Shown here piece after piece: positions 766 through 7,422 of a DNA stretch of 7,422 bases. Positions within the stretch are counted from its first letter, which is position 1, and every line of letters starts with the position of its first letter. The position numbers were made by a program, and so were the translations under genes. The stretch is from IMG/VR virus record IMGVR_UViG_2778261179_000004. One strand, given 5' to 3'. A model generated the notes under the pieces. The model saw only the letters and a program-made list of their open reading frames with translations, was not told where the DNA came from and made no database searches. Origin of the DNA: a virus. Its lineage: Duplodnaviria > Heunggongvirae > Uroviricota > Caudoviricetes.

Positions 766-4167
<3,402 letters not shown>

Positions 4168-4174
4168 TCACGCT

Positions 4175-4206
4175 CCATAAATGACAAAACCGCCCGCAGG
4201 CGGTTT
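4175..4206 (-). other. intercistronic stem-loop between I and J (terminator-like or RNA-structure element)
   Basis: Perfect 8-bp inverted repeat (+ strand 4187-4194 aaaccgcc pairing with 4199-4206 ggcggttt), loop CGCA. On the minus strand the stem is followed by UUUUGUCAUUUAU and then the J Shine-Dalgarno and ATG. Confidence 0.4.
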
Positions 4207-4224
4207 CACATAAAACATTTTGCA

Positions 4225-4896
4225 TCAGCGACCAATCACCACAACCTGACCACCGTCCCCTTCGTCTGCCGTGCTGATCTCCTGAGAAACCACACGTGAC
4301 CCCACGCGCATTTCACCGTACAGAACGGGCAGAACATTGCCCTGGGCAACCATGTTATCCAGTGAGGAGAAATAGGTGTTCTGTTTGCCGTTATCCGTTG
4401 TCTGTGTACGGGGAGTTCTGGCTTTCGGTGCCAGCATCTGCGCCACACCACCGAGCACCATACTGGCACCGAGAGAAAACAGGATGCCGGTCATACCACC
4501 GGCCCCAATGGCTGCCCCCCACGCTGCAAGGGTGGCTCCGGCGGTAAAGAATGATCCGGCAATGGCGGCAGCCCCCAGGACAATCTGGAATACGCCACCT
4601 GACTTGGCCCCGGCGACTCTGGGAACAATATGAATCACAGCGCCATCAGGCAGAGTCTCATGTAACTGCGCCGTTAACCCGGACGTGCTGACGTCCCGCC
4701 CGGCAATCCGTACCTGATACCAGCCGTCGCTCAGTTTCTGACGAAACGCCGGGAGCTGTGTGGCCAGTGCCCGGATGGCTTCAGCCCCCGTTTTCACACG
4801 AAGGTCGATGCGGCGGCCAAATCGTTGTAAATCCCCGTAAAGGCAGATGCGTGCCATGCCCGGTGACGCCAGAGGGAGTGTGTGCGTCGCTGCCAT
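4225..4896 (-). CDS. I: tail assembly protein I (ubiquitin-like N-terminal domain, Gly-rich hydrophobic C-terminal region)
   Basis: 223-aa ORF. Sequence MAATHTLPLASPGMARICLYGDLQRFGRRIDLRV... is recognisable as lambda gpI. Overlaps the 3' end of K by 103 nt, as I recall for lambda. AGAGG element about 11 nt upstream of the ATG. Confidence 0.93.
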   Translation of the reverse strand: MAATHTLPLASPGMARICLYGDLQRFGRRIDLRVKTGAEAIRALATQLPAFRQKLSDGWYQVRIAGRDVSTSGLTAQLHETLPDGAVIHIVPRVAGAKSGGVFQIVLGAAAIAGSFFTAGATLAAWGAAIGAGGMTGILFSLGASMVLGGVAQMLAPKARTPRTQTTDNGKQNTYFSSLDNMVAQGNVLPVLYGEMRVGSRVVSQEISTADEGDGGQVVVIGR

Positions 4897-5537
4897 TTGT
4901 CGGTATACCTCTCTCGTTTGCTCAGTTGTTCAGGAATATGGTGCAGCAGCTCGCCATCACCACAGTAAATGGCGGCATGATTCGGCACCGATGAACCAAA
5001 ACAGCACAGCAGCACATCGCCCGGTTGTGCTGATGACAACGGCACCTGATACAGCCCTGTGGCCTCCAGATTATCCAGATAGAGATTCTGACCGTGACGC
5101 CACCAGTCATCCTCGCGATGAAAATCCGGCATCTCAATCCCCGCCAGATGATAAGCATCCCGGAACAGCGTGTAACAGTCCGTCACCCCGTGCTCAAAGC
5201 GCCGCCCGGTGAGATGCGGCACACAGCGGAACTTATGAATCGTCCCCCGGCAGACCAGCCACCACGGCAAATCACTCTGCACCTGCAGCCGCCGGTCGGC
5301 CTCACTCAGCCAGGGCAGACCACCGGGGTGGCTGTGGACCAGCGCCACAATCTCACCCTGCATTTCTGCCTGCAGCCAGTCTTCCGGCGACATACGGAAA
5401 TACGCCTCCGGCTCACCGGAGATATTCACGCAGGGAAAATATCTTTCCCCCTCCGGCGTGCTTACCACGAAGCCGCACGACTCCGCTGGCGCACATCGCC
5501 GGGCGTGCGCCAGAATCGCTGATTCTGTCTGTGTCAT
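4794..5537 (-). CDS. K: tail tip assembly protein K (JAB/MPN metalloprotease-like domain plus NlpC/P60 (C40) peptidase-like domain)
   Basis: 247-aa ORF from the first in-frame ATG, 5 nt after the L stop. Contains JAMM signature H68-x-H70-x7-S78-x2-D81 (HSHPGGLPWLSEAD) with a candidate upstream Glu (E19), and NlpC/P60-like Cys121 (TDCYTLF) and His187 (PNHAAIY). The alternative start is Met49 (ATG at 5391-5393), preceded by GGAGG 11 nt upstream, giving the 199-aa form that I recall as the classical lambda annotation. The 5' boundary is therefore uncertain; the 3' end is firm. Confidence 0.85.
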   Translation of the reverse strand: MTQTESAILAHARRCAPAESCGFVVSTPEGERYFPCVNISGEPEAYFRMSPEDWLQAEMQGEIVALVHSHPGGLPWLSEADRRLQVQSDLPWWLVCRGTIHKFRCVPHLTGRRFEHGVTDCYTLFRDAYHLAGIEMPDFHREDDWWRHGQNLYLDNLEATGLYQVPLSSAQPGDVLLCCFGSSVPNHAAIYCGDGELLHHIPEQLSKRERYTDKWQRRTHSLWRHRAWHASAFTGIYNDLAAASTFV

Positions 5538-5542
5538 GGGAT

Positions 5543-6241
5543 TTACTGCGAAAGTTTGTTAATGGAAAGGAAGCTGCCAAAGTTGCCGACATTATTGCGA
5601 AACTTACAGCCACTCAGGCATTTGCTGCATTTATCCTTCGTGATATCGGACGTCGGCTGGTCATATTCATCCGCGACTGCCGGACCGTGATAACCGCACT
5701 CATCACCGCGATAGGTCCAGGTGCAGGTGTTGGCCAGCATGATACGTCCCGGAAAAACAGCGCCATCCGTTTCCGTCGGTGTGGACAACACAAAGGAGGC
5801 ACTCACCGCACTCAGTTCGCTGCACTGCTCGATGCGCCAGCGGCTGATCACCTCCTGCTCCGGATCGGCGTCGCTGTTTCCGTTGACGAAGTTCACCGCA
5901 TCCAGAAAACGGGAGTAAACCTTACGCCGGACCACCGTTCCGCCGACCAGACTCTGCAGATCTTCCGCCATCCCGGTGACCATACCGTACAGGTTAGAAA
6001 CCGTCAGCGTGGGGCGCGTACTGGTGCCTTTGCCATTCAGTTCAAAACCACTCCCCTGAATGGGATACGGCTGATACTGTCGCCCCTGCCAGGTGACCGG
6101 CTCACCTTTTTCGTTCAGCTCATTACAGAAAAAATAACGTTCTCCACCGACCTCTGTCAGGTCGATTTCCCAGAGCACCACGCTGGCCGACTGCTCCGCA
6201 CGGGTGCATTCATTCAGTGTTTCCTGCCGGATATCCTGCAT
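5543..6241 (-). CDS. L: minor tail protein L (tail tip complex)
   Basis: 232-aa ORF. MQDIRQETLNECTRAEQSASVVLWEIDLTEVGGERYFFC... is recognisable as lambda gpL, including the C-terminal Cys-rich segment (CSKCLSGCKF). Its ATG overlaps the M stop codon (minus strand TGATG). GGTGG Shine-Dalgarno-like element about 7 nt upstream. Confidence 0.95.
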   Translation of the reverse strand: MQDIRQETLNECTRAEQSASVVLWEIDLTEVGGERYFFCNELNEKGEPVTWQGRQYQPYPIQGSGFELNGKGTSTRPTLTVSNLYGMVTGMAEDLQSLVGGTVVRRKVYSRFLDAVNFVNGNSDADPEQEVISRWRIEQCSELSAVSASFVLSTPTETDGAVFPGRIMLANTCTWTYRGDECGYHGPAVADEYDQPTSDITKDKCSKCLSGCKFRNNVGNFGSFLSINKLSQ

Positions 6242-6570
6242 CAGTTCACCACCTGTTCAAACTCTGCGCTGAACTCAACACGCAGCATACTGACCCGCGA
6301 CGACCATTTTGCGCAGGTCACCTTTATCTGCCGCCACTCATAAGGCGGCGTCCACAGAAAGGCTTTCCAGCCCCCGTGCTCTTCCAGAAACGACTCCAGT
6401 ACCGTGGCCTCCTCACGGGGGACAGAAAGCGTCACGCTGTACGTTTTCAGGTTGGCATTCAGCCCGGCAGGCGCTCGCTGGGAATAGCCATCACCAAAGC
6501 GCACCTTTCTTACAGAAGGGGCCGAAGCCACATCCATACCGGGTTTCACTTTCCAGCGGAAGGTTTTCAT
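6241..6570 (-). CDS. M: minor tail protein M (tail tip complex)
   Basis: 109-aa ORF. MKTFRWKVKPGMDVAS...RVEFSAEFEQVVN is recognisable as lambda gpM. Its ATG overlaps the H stop codon (minus strand ATGA). GGAGG (+ strand 6577-6581) 6 nt upstream. Confidence 0.95.
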   Translation of the reverse strand: MKTFRWKVKPGMDVASAPSVRKVRFGDGYSQRAPAGLNANLKTYSVTLSVPREEATVLESFLEEHGGWKAFLWTPPYEWRQIKVTCAKWSSRVSMLRVEFSAEFEQVVN

Positions 6571-7422
6571 CGTCCACCTCCGGAGAACAGGCCACCATCA
6601 CGCATCTGTGTCTGAATTTCATCACGGGCACCCTTGCGGGCCATGTCATACACTGCCTTCATCATCTGTGGACCTGGCAGACCATTCGTACCGTCGTTCT
6701 GAATCACCACGTGATTGTTCTGATTAAAATTAATGCCTTCAGCCCGCCGCATCTGCGCCGGACTTCCGGCACCGCCCACATAACCACCTTCCGCATAGCC
6801 CCGCATCAGGCGGTACAGGTTGCCGACACCAATCCGGCTGGTTGCCTCCTTCGTGAAGACAAATTCACCACGGTGAACAATCCCCGCTGGCTCATATTTG
6901 CCGCCGGTTCCCGTAAATCCCCCGGTCGCAAAATGGAATTTCGCCGCAGCGGCCTGAATGGCTGTACCGCCTGACGCGGATGCTCCACCACTGGCAGCAC
7001 CGCCAATGGCGCTGCCGATACTCCCGACAATCCCCACCATTGCCTGCTTAAGCAGAATTTCTGTCATCATGGACAGCACGGAACGGGTGAAGCTGCGCCA
7101 GTTCTGCTCACTGCCGGTCAGCATCGCCGCCATATTCTGTGCAATACCATCAAAGGTCTGCGTGGCTGCACTTTTAACCTGCGACATACTGTCCGTGGCG
7201 CTCTCTTCCCACTCACTCCAGCCGGACTTCAGGCCTGCCATCCAGCTCCCGCGAAGCTGGTCTTCAGCCGCCCAGGTCTTTTTCTGCTCTGACATGACGT
7301 TATTCAGCGCCAGCGGATTATCGCCATACTGTTCCTTCAGGCGCTGTTCCGTGGCTTCACGTTCTGCCTGCCGGTCAGTCAGCCCCCGGCTTTTCGCATC
7401 AATGGCGGCCCGTTTTGCCCGT
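6567..7422 (-). CDS. H: tail length tape-measure protein H, C-terminal 285 codons (5' end lies beyond the window)
   Basis: The minus-strand frame is open from the window edge (7421) to the stop at 6567-6569; I translated 7296-7421 by hand and found no stop, so the ATG at 7295 in the ORF track is an internal Met. C-terminal sequence ...YGDNPLALNNVMSEQKKTWAAEDQLRG...MRDGGLFSGGGR is recognisable as the lambda gpH C-terminus, with a Gly/Ala-rich hydrophobic segment. Confidence 0.9.
   Translation of the reverse strand, partial: RAKRAAIDAKSRGLTDRQAEREATEQRLKEQYGDNPLALNNVMSEQKKTWAAEDQLRGSWMAGLKSGWSEWEESATDSMSQVKSAATQTFDGIAQNMAAMLTGSEQNWRSFTRSVLSMMTEILLKQAMVGIVGSIGSAIGGAASGGASASGGTAIQAAAAKFHFATGGFTGTGGKYEPAGIVHRGEFVFTKEATSRIGVGNLYRLMRGYAEGGYVGGAGSPAQMRRAEGINFNQNNHVVIQNDGTNGLPGPQMMKAVYDMARKGARDEIQTQMRDGGLFSGGGR

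What the first reader, a model, noticed from the sequence alone, without database searches (positions are those of the whole stretch)
4429..5336. Adjacent K (JAB plus NlpC/P60 peptidase motifs) and I (ubiquitin-like domain ending in Gly-Gly)
K carries two peptidase signatures: the JAMM motif HSHPGGLPWLSEAD (5295-5336) and an NlpC/P60-type Cys121 (TDCYTLF) and His187 (PNHAAIY). The gene immediately downstream, overlapping it by 103 nt, encodes I. Its first about 100 residues have the size and pattern of a beta-grasp ubiquitin-like domain and end in ...VAGAKSGG (Gly100-Gly101). This is followed at once by about 55 residues of Gly/Ala-rich hydrophobic sequence with GxxxG/A spacing (residues 102-156, nt 4429-4593). 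A JAB protease next to a Ub-like protein ending in Gly-Gly mirrors ubiquitin-processing logic, and this pairing in lambda-like tails has been noted in comparative-genomics work. I am not aware of a settled biochemical function.
Basis: partly seen in the sequence, partly recalled or inferred. Interest (0 to 1): 0.55.

Follow-up and report, generated by a model that had tools for sequence, protein, structure and literature searches.

The report
Lambda tail proteins K and I
These are the well-known lambda-type tail-tip genes K (a two-headed peptidase) and I (a ubiquitin-like domain fused to the membrane-active tail plug); the ubiquitin-style pairing is real, but it was published in 2003-2006, so this is a confirmation with a refined cleavage-site prediction, not a discovery.

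Summary
The window is a lambda-type tail-tip module on the minus strand: H'-M-L-K-I-J-lom. I is 222/223 identical to lambda gpI.

- **K:** it scores above Pfam cut-offs for Prok-JAB and NlpC/P60, and both catalytic sets are conserved in diverse phages.
- **I, residues 13-97:** they model confidently as a beta-grasp. The closest solved folds are SAMP1, MoaD, Urm1 and CysO. K's best structural match is the archaeal desampylase JAMM1.
- **The Gly-Gly:** Gly100-Gly101 is not the conserved element. G96 (61/63) plus a small residue at 97 (62/63) aligns with the terminal Gly-Gly of MoaD. G100 is Gly in only 33/63.

The idea is already published. The JAMM motif in K was noted in 2003, and JAB cleavage of the Ubl of I was predicted in 2006. 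Cryo-EM shows only the part of gpI after the Ubl, as a trimeric plug. A 2026 F-pyocin preprint shows the homologue's N-terminal domain is removed, by an unidentified protease.

Best reading: I is a precursor, and K's JAB clips off its Ubl during tip assembly. Novelty: already known. Interest is modest.

The parts
4794..5537 (-). Gene K, tail-tip assembly protein, 247 aa (JAB + NlpC/P60)
   Evidence: ORF. Pfam Prok-JAB and NLPC_P60. 96-99% identical to large E. coli prophage clusters. Same 247-aa protein in resequenced lambda.
5226..5531 (-). K JAB/JAMM metalloprotease domain (residues 3-104)
   Evidence: Pfam PF14464, 52.3 bits. The AF2 model's best PDB match is P. furiosus JAMM1, alone and with SAMP2.
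5481..5483 (-). K Glu19, general-base Glu of the JAMM motif (ExCG)
   Evidence: Invariant in 27 K homologues and in 22 diverse phage loci.
5295..5336 (-). JAMM zinc motif HSHPGGLPWLSEAD (H68, H70, S78, D81)
   Evidence: Verified. H68, S69, H70, S78 and D81 are invariant.
4866..5207 (-). K NlpC/P60 (C40) papain-like peptidase domain (residues 111-224), with C121 (5175-5177), H187 (4977-4979) and H199 (4941-4943)
   Evidence: Pfam PF00877, 49.3 bits. D120, C121 and H187 are invariant; H199/H200 are at least 90% conserved. Foldseek hits MepS/Spr, NlpC1/2 and LytE.
4794..4896 (-). 103-nt K/I dual-coding overlap (K residues 214-247 and the K stop codon / I residues 1-34)
   Evidence: The same overlap is in lambda J02459.
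4225..4896 (-). Gene I, tail-tip protein, 223-aa precursor
   Evidence: ORF. Pfam Lambda_tail_I, 100 bits. 222/223 identical to PDB 8iyk_I.
4606..4860 (-). I N-terminal MoaD/SAMP-type beta-grasp Ubl domain (residues 13-97)
   Evidence: AF2 pLDDT is 87-95 over residues 11-90, with b1 13-19, b2 29-34, a 37-57, b3 59-64 and b5 87-93. Foldseek top hits are SAMP1, MoaD, Urm1 and CysO, with TM about 0.6-0.75.
4606..4611 (-). I Gly96-Ala97: conserved tail of the Ubl, equivalent to the terminal Gly-Gly of MoaD; predicted processing site
   Evidence: G96 61/63, residue 97 A/S/G 62/63, P92 63/63. hhalign places I77-96 on MoaD61-80.
4594..4599 (-).
   Evidence: G100 33/63, G101 55/63. Absent in the Oslo/Midgardsormr/mEp013 group and in the F-pyocin homologue.
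4429..4593 (-). I residues 102-156: uncharged Gly/Ala-rich hydrophobic helical hairpin (H1/H2)
   Evidence: Composition and hydropathy. G108, G143 and G150 are invariant. The helices surround the tape-measure C-terminus and are predicted transmembrane (PMC11101478; PMC10721106).
4228..4428 (-). I residues 157-223: plug and beta-strand anchor, retained in the virion
   Evidence: Cryo-EM models cover 135-223 and 134-222. PDB 9e7m chains cover 133-222. The only virion MS peptide is 202-223.

Best explanation
I is made as a 23-kDa precursor with three parts. An N-terminal MoaD/SAMP-type ubiquitin-like domain (about residues 13-97) comes first. A short linker follows. The functional tail-tip component comes last: an uncharged Gly/Ala-rich helical hairpin (102-156) and a plug/anchor (157-223).

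During tail-tip assembly (J, then I, L, K), the JAB zinc metalloprotease domain of K recognises the beta-grasp domain. It cuts the polypeptide at or just after the conserved P-x-h-x-G96-A97 tail, somewhere between residue 96 and residue 101. This is how archaeal JAMM1 removes SAMPs and how deubiquitinases release ubiquitin from ubiquitin-ribosomal-protein fusions.

The 10.5-kDa Ubl and K leave. The roughly 12.7-kDa C-terminal fragment stays as a trimer in the tip lumen. There it holds the tape-measure C-terminus and plugs the tube until receptor binding.

Before cleavage, the Ubl probably acts as a solubilising chaperone or steric gate for the very hydrophobic hairpin. The NlpC/P60 domain of K is a second, catalytically intact peptidase whose substrate is unresolved.

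**Shown:** the folds, the motifs, their conservation and synteny; absence of the N-domain from cryo-EM models; removal of the N-domain in the F-pyocin homologue.

**Inferred:** that K's JAB is the protease, the exact cut site, and the chaperone/gate role.
For: **Enzyme and substrate folds match a known pair**
- K scores above cut-off for Prok-JAB and NLPC_P60, and I for Lambda_tail_I.
- The I 1-102 model is a beta-grasp with a low-confidence, flexible tail at 94-102.
- Its closest solved folds are SAMP1, MoaD, Urm1 and CysO.
- K's best PDB match is JAMM1, including the JAMM1-SAMP2 complex 5lda.

**Active sites are under selection**
- JAB residues E19, H68, H70, S78 and D81, and NlpC/P60 residues C121 and H187, are invariant.
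- This holds across lambda-like, T1-like, Dhillonvirus, cyanophage, Vibrio, Pseudomonas and Rhizobium phages.

**The four domains travel together**
- JAB, NlpC/P60, Ubl and plug co-occur in order in 22/22 phage loci. Eight of those were selected with the NlpC/P60 domain alone.
- They co-occur in 11/13 bacterial loci.
- RcGTA lacks I and has a 150-aa NlpC/P60-only g14 (PMC7296036).

**The conserved Ubl tail is G96-[A/S]97**, aligned to the MoaD terminal GG.

**The N-domain is missing from mature particles**
- Cryo-EM sees gpI only from 101, 134 or 135 onward.
- gpK is absent from virions.
- The single gpI peptide in virion MS, at 9.87% coverage, can only be 202-223.
- In F-pyocin, the PA0640 N-domain is present in stalled tips and absent from mature particles. 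Deleting PA0639 gives tipless tubes.
- The upstream PA0639-type gene has an intact JAB plus NlpC/P60.

The prediction was made earlier by Iyer et al. 2006.
Against: - No experiment links K's JAB to cleavage of I.
- In the F-pyocin preprint, the N-domain is still present in stalled tips made in strains that carry the K homologue. Recombinant PA0640 expressed alone in E. coli also loses its N-region to unknown host proteases. So K is neither shown to be sufficient nor shown to be necessary.
- For lambda itself, cleavage is not demonstrated. Structural papers call the N-domain 'unresolved', and the MS evidence is one peptide.
- The tail is Gly-Ala/Ser, not Gly-Gly. The MoaD alignment is weak on its own (E = 0.024, probability 2%).
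- Co-occurrence inside a syntenic module does not prove an enzyme-substrate relation.
- Two of 13 bacterial loci have I with no K within 3 kb.
Confidence: 0.55

Rival explanations
1. The Ubl of I is removed, but not by K's JAB. The cut is made by K's NlpC/P60 cysteine peptidase or by a host protease. The JAB acts on something else, for example the tape-measure protein gpH, or it only binds the Ubl.
For: - PA0640 expressed alone in E. coli loses its N-region to unknown host proteases.
- The NlpC/P60 triad is as strictly conserved as the JAMM motif.
- K is not detected in virions, so a cytoplasmic protein substrate is plausible.
- The protease that converts gpH to gpH* in its Gly-rich region is unknown (PMC12617516).
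Against: - NlpC/P60 relatives are peptidoglycan endopeptidases. The RcGTA homologue g14 degrades peptidoglycan.
- The JAB-Ubl pairing has a direct structural precedent in JAMM1-SAMP2.
- Loss of the N-region in a heterologous host may be non-specific degradation of an unassembled protein.
Confidence: 0.2
2. In lambda, the Ubl of I is not cleaved at all. It stays attached but flexible and invisible. K's JAB uses it as a docking handle, or is catalytically irrelevant to I.
For: - Lambda structural papers describe the N-terminal domain only as unresolved.
- One paper speculates that it might be the missing cell-wall enzyme.
- No lambda data show a cleaved product.
Against: - The beta-grasp has no hydrolase features.
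- Several good tryptic peptides from residues 17-63 were not seen in virion MS, while the C-terminal peptide was.
- The F-pyocin homologue's N-domain is absent from mature particles by MS.
- Invariant JAMM residues argue for catalysis.
- Older reports that gpI is not in tails (quoted) fit a 12.7-kDa fragment that was overlooked.
Confidence: 0.1
3. K is chiefly a virion-delivered cell-wall hydrolase, as proposed for RcGTA g14. It would be present at about one asymmetric copy per tail. The JAB-Ubl contact would only load K into the tip.
For: - RcGTA g14 degrades peptidoglycan, is needed for tail formation, and may sit as a monomer in the tail lumen.
- A single asymmetric copy would be invisible in C3 maps. 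It could also be missed by MS, which found only one gpI peptide.
- The lambda cell-wall enzyme is unidentified.
Against: - gpK was not detected by MS in lambda virions.
- The K homologue was not detected in F-pyocin particles.
- This reading does not explain the conserved JAMM catalytic residues or the loss of the I N-domain.
Confidence: 0.1

Closest known systems
Phage lambda gpK / gpI (TAPK / TAPI; Iyer, Burroughs & Aravind 2006, PMC1779556; JAMM motif in K noted by Ambroggio et al. 2003, PMC300881)
   Same: Essentially the same genes. I is 222/223 identical to gpI. K is 247 aa, as in resequenced lambda. Gene order and the 103-nt overlap are the same. The JAB + NlpC/P60 + Ubl architecture and the JAB-cleaves-Ubl prediction are already published.
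   Different: Only point differences. The classical records J02459 and NC_001416 annotate K as 199 aa because they lack one G. That hides the N-terminal third of the JAB domain.
Archaeal JAMM1 desampylase with SAMP1/SAMP2 (PDB 5ld9, 5lda, 2l52, 3po0)
   Same: These are the best structural matches for both partners: K-JAB to PfJAMM1 and I-Ubl to SAMP1. Both pair a minimal JAMM metalloprotease with a MoaD-like beta-grasp. From my own knowledge, not tested here: HvJAMM1 also cleaves a linear SAMP1-MoaE fusion.
   Different: SAMPs are free modifiers ending in Gly-Gly. They are activated by an E1 and conjugated to lysines. I's Ubl is translated as the N-terminal part of a structural protein, ends in Gly-Ala, and has no E1 in the module.
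F-type pyocin PA0639 / PA0640 (bioRxiv 10.64898/2026.02.24.707460; PDB 25vf chain 9)
   Same: These are homologues of K and I. PA0640 forms the same trimeric plug. Its N-domain is absent from mature particles. PA0639 is absent from particles and is required for tip formation.
   Different: It is a tailocin, not a phage. The tail sequence is GSKQSG, without Gly-Gly. The authors do not name the protease or mention the JAB or Ubl folds.
Eukaryotic ubiquitin-ribosomal protein fusions (UBA52, RPS27A)
   Same: Same logic, from established knowledge and not tested here. A ubiquitin fold is translated in front of a structural protein. It aids that protein's solubility or assembly and is clipped off by a deubiquitinase.
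   Different: The folds are only distantly related (Foldseek E about 1e-2 to ubiquitin/SUMO). The eukaryotic cut is after Gly-Gly, mostly by cysteine DUBs, and the released ubiquitin is reused.
RcGTA g14 peptidase and T5 pb3 plug domain
   Same: g14 is the NlpC/P60 counterpart of K and is needed for tail formation. The T5 pb3 plug occupies the same place as the gpI tripod and is thought to enter the outer membrane.
   Different: g14 has no JAB, and RcGTA has no I. The T5 plug is an insertion within the hub protein, with no Ubl and no processing.

Membership tests
JAB/JAMM (MPN+) metalloprotease, Pfam PF14464 Prok-JAB | Sequence score above the curated family threshold | tested here: met
   52.3 bits against a cut-off of 25, residues 3-104.
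JAB/JAMM (MPN+) metalloprotease, Pfam PF14464 Prok-JAB | Complete E-x(n)-H-x-H-x7-S-x2-D zinc/catalytic motif | tested here: met
   E19, H68, H70, S78 and D81 with exact spacing. They are invariant in homologues.
JAB/JAMM (MPN+) metalloprotease, Pfam PF14464 Prok-JAB | MPN fold | tested here: met
   The AF2 model (pLDDT 79) has top Foldseek hits PfJAMM1, Rpn11 and CSN5.
JAB/JAMM (MPN+) metalloprotease, Pfam PF14464 Prok-JAB | Zinc-dependent (iso)peptidase activity after a Ubl C-terminus | not testable with these tools
   No biochemical data were found in the literature searches.
NlpC/P60 (MEROPS C40) peptidase, Pfam PF00877 | Score above threshold and papain-like fold | tested here: met
   49.3 bits against a cut-off of 23. 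Foldseek hits MepS/Spr, NlpC1/2, LytE and Acd24020.
NlpC/P60 (MEROPS C40) peptidase, Pfam PF00877 | Cys-His-(His/Asn/Gln) catalytic triad | tested here: met
   C121 and H187 are invariant; H199 is at least 90% conserved.
NlpC/P60 (MEROPS C40) peptidase, Pfam PF00877 | Peptidoglycan endopeptidase activity | not testable with these tools
   Shown only for the RcGTA homologue g14.
Lambda tail assembly protein I (Pfam PF06805, PHROG 32) | Family score, near-identity to gpI, position between K and J | tested here: met
   100 bits against a cut-off of 23.8. 222/223 identity to 8iyk_I. phrog_32 at 1.4e-83. Gene order.
Ubiquitin-like beta-grasp, MoaD/ThiS/SAMP/Urm1 clade | Beta-grasp fold (b-b-a-b-b-b) | tested here: met
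   AF2 pLDDT 85. Foldseek hits SAMP1, MoaD, Urm1 and CysO at E 8e-5 to 1e-3, TM 0.56-0.76.
Ubiquitin-like beta-grasp, MoaD/ThiS/SAMP/Urm1 clade | C-terminal Gly-Gly at the end of the fold | tested here: not met
   The homologous positions are G96-A97, where residue 97 is A in 50, S in 10 and G in 2 of 63. The nearby G100-G101 is not conserved (33/63 and 55/63).
Ubiquitin-like beta-grasp, MoaD/ThiS/SAMP/Urm1 clade | Partner E1-like adenylating enzyme, with conjugation or sulfur transfer | tested here: not met
   No ThiF/E1-like domain in any of the seven proteins of the window, and no E1-like gene is annotated in the 19 of 22 phage loci that carry annotation. So it has the fold of the clade but is not a free modifier or sulfur carrier.

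The most novel reading that the evidence does not exclude
K is a two-headed maturation protease that times tail assembly. Its JAB head removes the Ubl of I at G96-A97 as the checkpoint that lets the tape measure dock. [quoted passage not shown] The protease for that cut has been unknown for decades.
Probability: 0.08. Interest if true: 0.7.

Novelty: already known. Interest (0 to 1): 0.33.

Why it matters
The lambda tail tip is a textbook assembly system, yet the roles of K and of the first 100 residues of I remain biochemically undefined. Recent cryo-EM papers treat the I N-terminus as merely 'unresolved'. The F-pyocin preprint reports a proteolytic checkpoint without naming the protease.

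Three things now point to one cheap experiment: JAB point mutants plus intact-mass analysis of gpI.
- the 2006 JAB-Ubl prediction;
- the structures;
- the conserved G96-A97 tail.

That experiment would settle what K does. It would give a viral example of ubiquitin-style precursor processing without an E1, and it would correct the 199-aa annotation of K. It would not overturn anything.

Tried and rejected
- **Single-protein scan of viral contigs:** returned only identical lambda-like loci. I used tblastn against annotated phages instead.
- **Negative control for co-occurrence:** I looked for phages with an NlpC/P60-only K. None of the eight loci picked with the NlpC/P60 domain alone lacked JAB or Ubl. 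Only RcGTA, from the literature, fills that role.
- **K-I fused ORFs as Rosetta-stone evidence:** rejected. Junctions are scattered through the 103-nt overlap, and almost all are singleton clusters (17 of 19, the other two with 2-3 members), so they look like frameshift errors or pseudogenes. phrog_35166 (JAB + I profile) and P0029 look like deletion derivatives and were not pursued.
- **Apparent split of lambda K into two frames:** this first looked like evidence that the JAB is dispensable. It is a missing base in the 1982 reference, because resequenced lambda has the intact gene.
- **P0288:** a 2783-aa hit with 23 'repeats' of I residues 10-63. It is low-complexity repeat junk with no domain match.
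- **K-I complex:** could not be modelled.
- **The Structure 2024 paper describing 8IYK:** not held. The 'resolved from residue 101' statement is second-hand.
- **Sulfur-carrier or Fe-S role for the Ubl, towards the gpL cluster:** considered and dropped, because there is no E1 and no terminal Gly-Gly.
Full report
**What is in the window.** All long ORFs that match known families lie on the minus strand and form a lambda-type tail-tip module:
- the C-terminal part of tape-measure H (6567-7295);
- M (6241-6570);
- L (5543-6241);
- K (4794-5537);
- I (4225-4896);
- J (766-4164);
- lom (100-699).

The K-I stretch is 97.8-99.4% identical to the 15 best-matching lambdoid phages. I is 222/223 identical to the lambda gpI chain in PDB 8IYK.

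**Checking the observation.**
- HSHPGGLPWLSEAD is K68-81, nt 5295-5336.
- C121 and H187 sit in TDCYTLF and PNHAAIY.
- The K/I overlap is 103 nt.
- I has G100-G101.
- I 102-156 is nt 4429-4593. It has 14 Ala, 11 Gly, no charged residue, and mean hydropathy +1.51.

K scores 52.3 bits for Prok-JAB and 49.3 bits for NLPC_P60. I scores 100 bits for Lambda_tail_I. All are well above the curated cut-offs.

**The folds.**
- An AlphaFold2 model of I residues 1-102, built on 63 sequences, has mean pLDDT 85 and a beta-grasp topology.
- Its C-terminal tail (94-102) and its first 12 residues have low confidence.
- Its best solved-structure matches are SAMP1, MoaD, Urm1 and CysO. SUMO and ubiquitin come further down the list.
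- The K model has pLDDT 79. Its top match is Pyrococcus JAMM1, including the JAMM1-SAMP2 complex. NlpC/P60 endopeptidases such as MepS/Spr follow, then Rpn11 and CSN5.

So enzyme and putative substrate mirror the archaeal desampylase-SAMP pair. This matches the MoaD/ThiS affinity reported by Iyer et al..

**Conservation and linkage.** I family relatives are abundant: 3207 representatives at 50% identity.
- In 27 K homologues down to 33% identity, E19, H68, S69, H70, S78, D81, D120, C121 and H187 are invariant. H199/H200 are at least 90% conserved.
- The same holds in 22 diverse phage loci: lambda-like, T1-like, Dhillonvirus, cyanophage S-2L, and Vibrio, Pseudomonas, Rhizobium, Ralstonia, Moraxella and Klebsiella phages.
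- HMMs for the four domains find JAB, NlpC/P60, Ubl and plug, in that order, in 22/22 of these loci. Eight were chosen with the NlpC/P60 domain alone.
- They are found in 11/13 bacterial loci. The other two have I with no K within 3 kb.
- RcGTA supplies the converse case: a 150-residue NlpC/P60-only g14 and no I.

The Gly-Gly at 100-101 is not the conserved feature. Counts in 63 diverse homologues:

| Position | Conservation |
|---|---|
| P92 | 63/63 |
| G96 | 61/63 |
| Residue 97 | A, S or G in 62/63 |
| G100 | Gly in 33/63 |
| G101 | Gly in 55/63 |

- A profile alignment places I 77-96 (QLHETLPDGAVIHIVPRVAG) on E. coli MoaD 61-80 (SFDHPLTDGDEVAFFPPVTG). So G96-A97 corresponds to the terminal Gly-Gly of MoaD. 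The MoaD sequence was verified against 1fm0_D.
- That alignment is weak alone (E = 0.024). It agrees with the fold match and with the shared motif: Asp-Gly, then a hydrophobic strand, Pro, two residues, Gly and a small residue.
- The two solved distant homologues read PIPTGSKTGG and PLVIGSKQSG. The second is from an F-pyocin and has no Gly-Gly.
- The lambda closed-state model is said to be resolved from position 101 onward. This fits a cut before 101.

The best prediction is therefore processing at or just after G96-A97. That gives a 10.5-kDa Ubl and a 12.7-kDa mature protein.

**What is already known.**
- The JAMM motif of lambda K was listed in 2003.
- In 2006 Iyer, Burroughs and Aravind described the Ubl of TAPI. 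They also described its Gly-rich linker, the JAB + NlpC/P60 architecture of TAPK and the conserved neighbourhood. They proposed that the JAB releases the Ubl at its C-terminal glycine.
- Cryo-EM studies show a trimer of gpI residues 134/135-223, or 101-223, plugging the tip lumen and holding the tape-measure C-terminus. Helices H1/H2 (our 102-156) are predicted to enter the outer membrane on opening. The N-terminal domain is never seen, and gpK is not found in virions.
- The virion MS table lists one gpI peptide at 9.87% coverage. That can only be the C-terminal tryptic peptide 202-223.
- A 2026 preprint on F-pyocin reports that the PA0640 N-terminal region is present in stalled tips and absent from mature particles. 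Deleting the K homologue PA0639 gives tipless tubes. The preprint states that the cleavage mechanism is unknown.
- I confirmed that the gene upstream of that plug protein carries intact JAB and NlpC/P60 motifs.

**Mechanism and its limits.** The best-supported model is that I is a precursor. K's JAB removes its Ubl during tip assembly, leaving the hydrophobic hairpin and plug inside the tip. Before cleavage, the Ubl serves as a solubilising or gating module.

The direct enzyme-substrate link, the exact site and the role of the NlpC/P60 head are inferences. Points against the model:
- the N-domain persists in stalled F-pyocin tips;
- recombinant PA0640 expressed alone loses its N-region in E. 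coli;
- lambda itself has no direct cleavage data.

The rivals are listed separately: another protease makes the cut, no cleavage happens in lambda, or K is mainly a delivered cell-wall hydrolase.

**Verdict.** It restates a published prediction about classical lambda genes. What this work adds:
- structural confirmation of both folds;
- wide co-occurrence with conserved active sites;
- relocation of the likely processing motif to G96-A97;
- the explanation of the 199-aa K annotation as a one-base error in J02459.

Novelty is 'already known', and interest is modest.

Noticed in passing
window 5403-5405 (K codon Ala45, GCG); locus L081 position about 1994 = J02459 about 14266: The reference lambda records (J02459, NC_001416, and the copies OR474059 and OR974322) lack one G here. 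This splits K into two frames and produces the classical '199-aa' K, which misses the first third of the JAB domain, including Glu19. Resequenced lambda (LC730321, 48503 bp; PV340536), DE3, HK629/630 and this window have the G and an intact 247-aa K.
   Followed up: yes
window 4797-4896 (I residues 1-34): Databases use three different starts for I: M1 (223 aa), M14 (210 aa; cluster P0012 with 5268 members), and the GTG of V34, which overlaps the K stop as GTGA (190 aa in PV340536). Only M1 has a Shine-Dalgarno-like GAGAGG upstream. G21 is invariant, L23 and G27 are at least 90% conserved, and strands b1-b2 are modelled confidently. So translation must start at or before M14.
   Followed up: partly
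window 4165-4224 (I-J intergenic spacer): A strong hairpin, AAACCGCC-UGCG-GGCGGUUU followed by UGUCAUUU, sits between the I stop and the J Shine-Dalgarno sequence. Over 73 nt the MFE is -22.9 kcal/mol, z = -2.25. The simple terminator scan did not call it. Its role (attenuation, mRNA stability or J translation) was not examined.
   Followed up: partly
window 6939-7025 (tape-measure H, Gly-rich segment GSIGSAIGGAASGGASASGGTAIQAAAAK): This is the Gly-rich region in which gpH is cleaved to gpH*. According to PMC12617516, both the protease and the exact site are unknown. K, with two intact peptidase sites and encoded about 1 kb downstream of H in the same module, is an untested candidate.
   Followed up: no
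L106 2331-3582 (Pseudomonas sp. RIT-PI-AD) and L114 2989-4301 (Oxalobacter paraformigenes): Two tandem full-length I paralogues, each with a Ubl and a plug, follow a single K gene.
   Followed up: no
L110 (Achromobacter dolens) and L115 (Holophagaceae MAG): I homologues with an intact Ubl but no detectable K (JAB or NlpC/P60) within 3 kb on either side. In L110 a J-like gene lies upstream instead. These are possible exceptions to the K-I linkage, or rearranged or defective prophages.
   Followed up: partly
L101 2151-2872 (Escherichia phage mEp506): The JAB and NlpC/P60 domains are encoded as two separate, abutting ORFs (annotated 2163-2552 and 2552-2872) rather than one K protein. This is either a real split or a frameshift.
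   Followed up: no
PHROG phrog_35166 and phrog_28576; proteins P0029, P0205 and P0150: Profile families and database proteins join K and I sequence in one ORF. Those inspected have junctions scattered through the 103-nt overlap or carry internal deletions. They look like frameshifted or degraded prophage genes, not designed fusions.
   Followed up: partly
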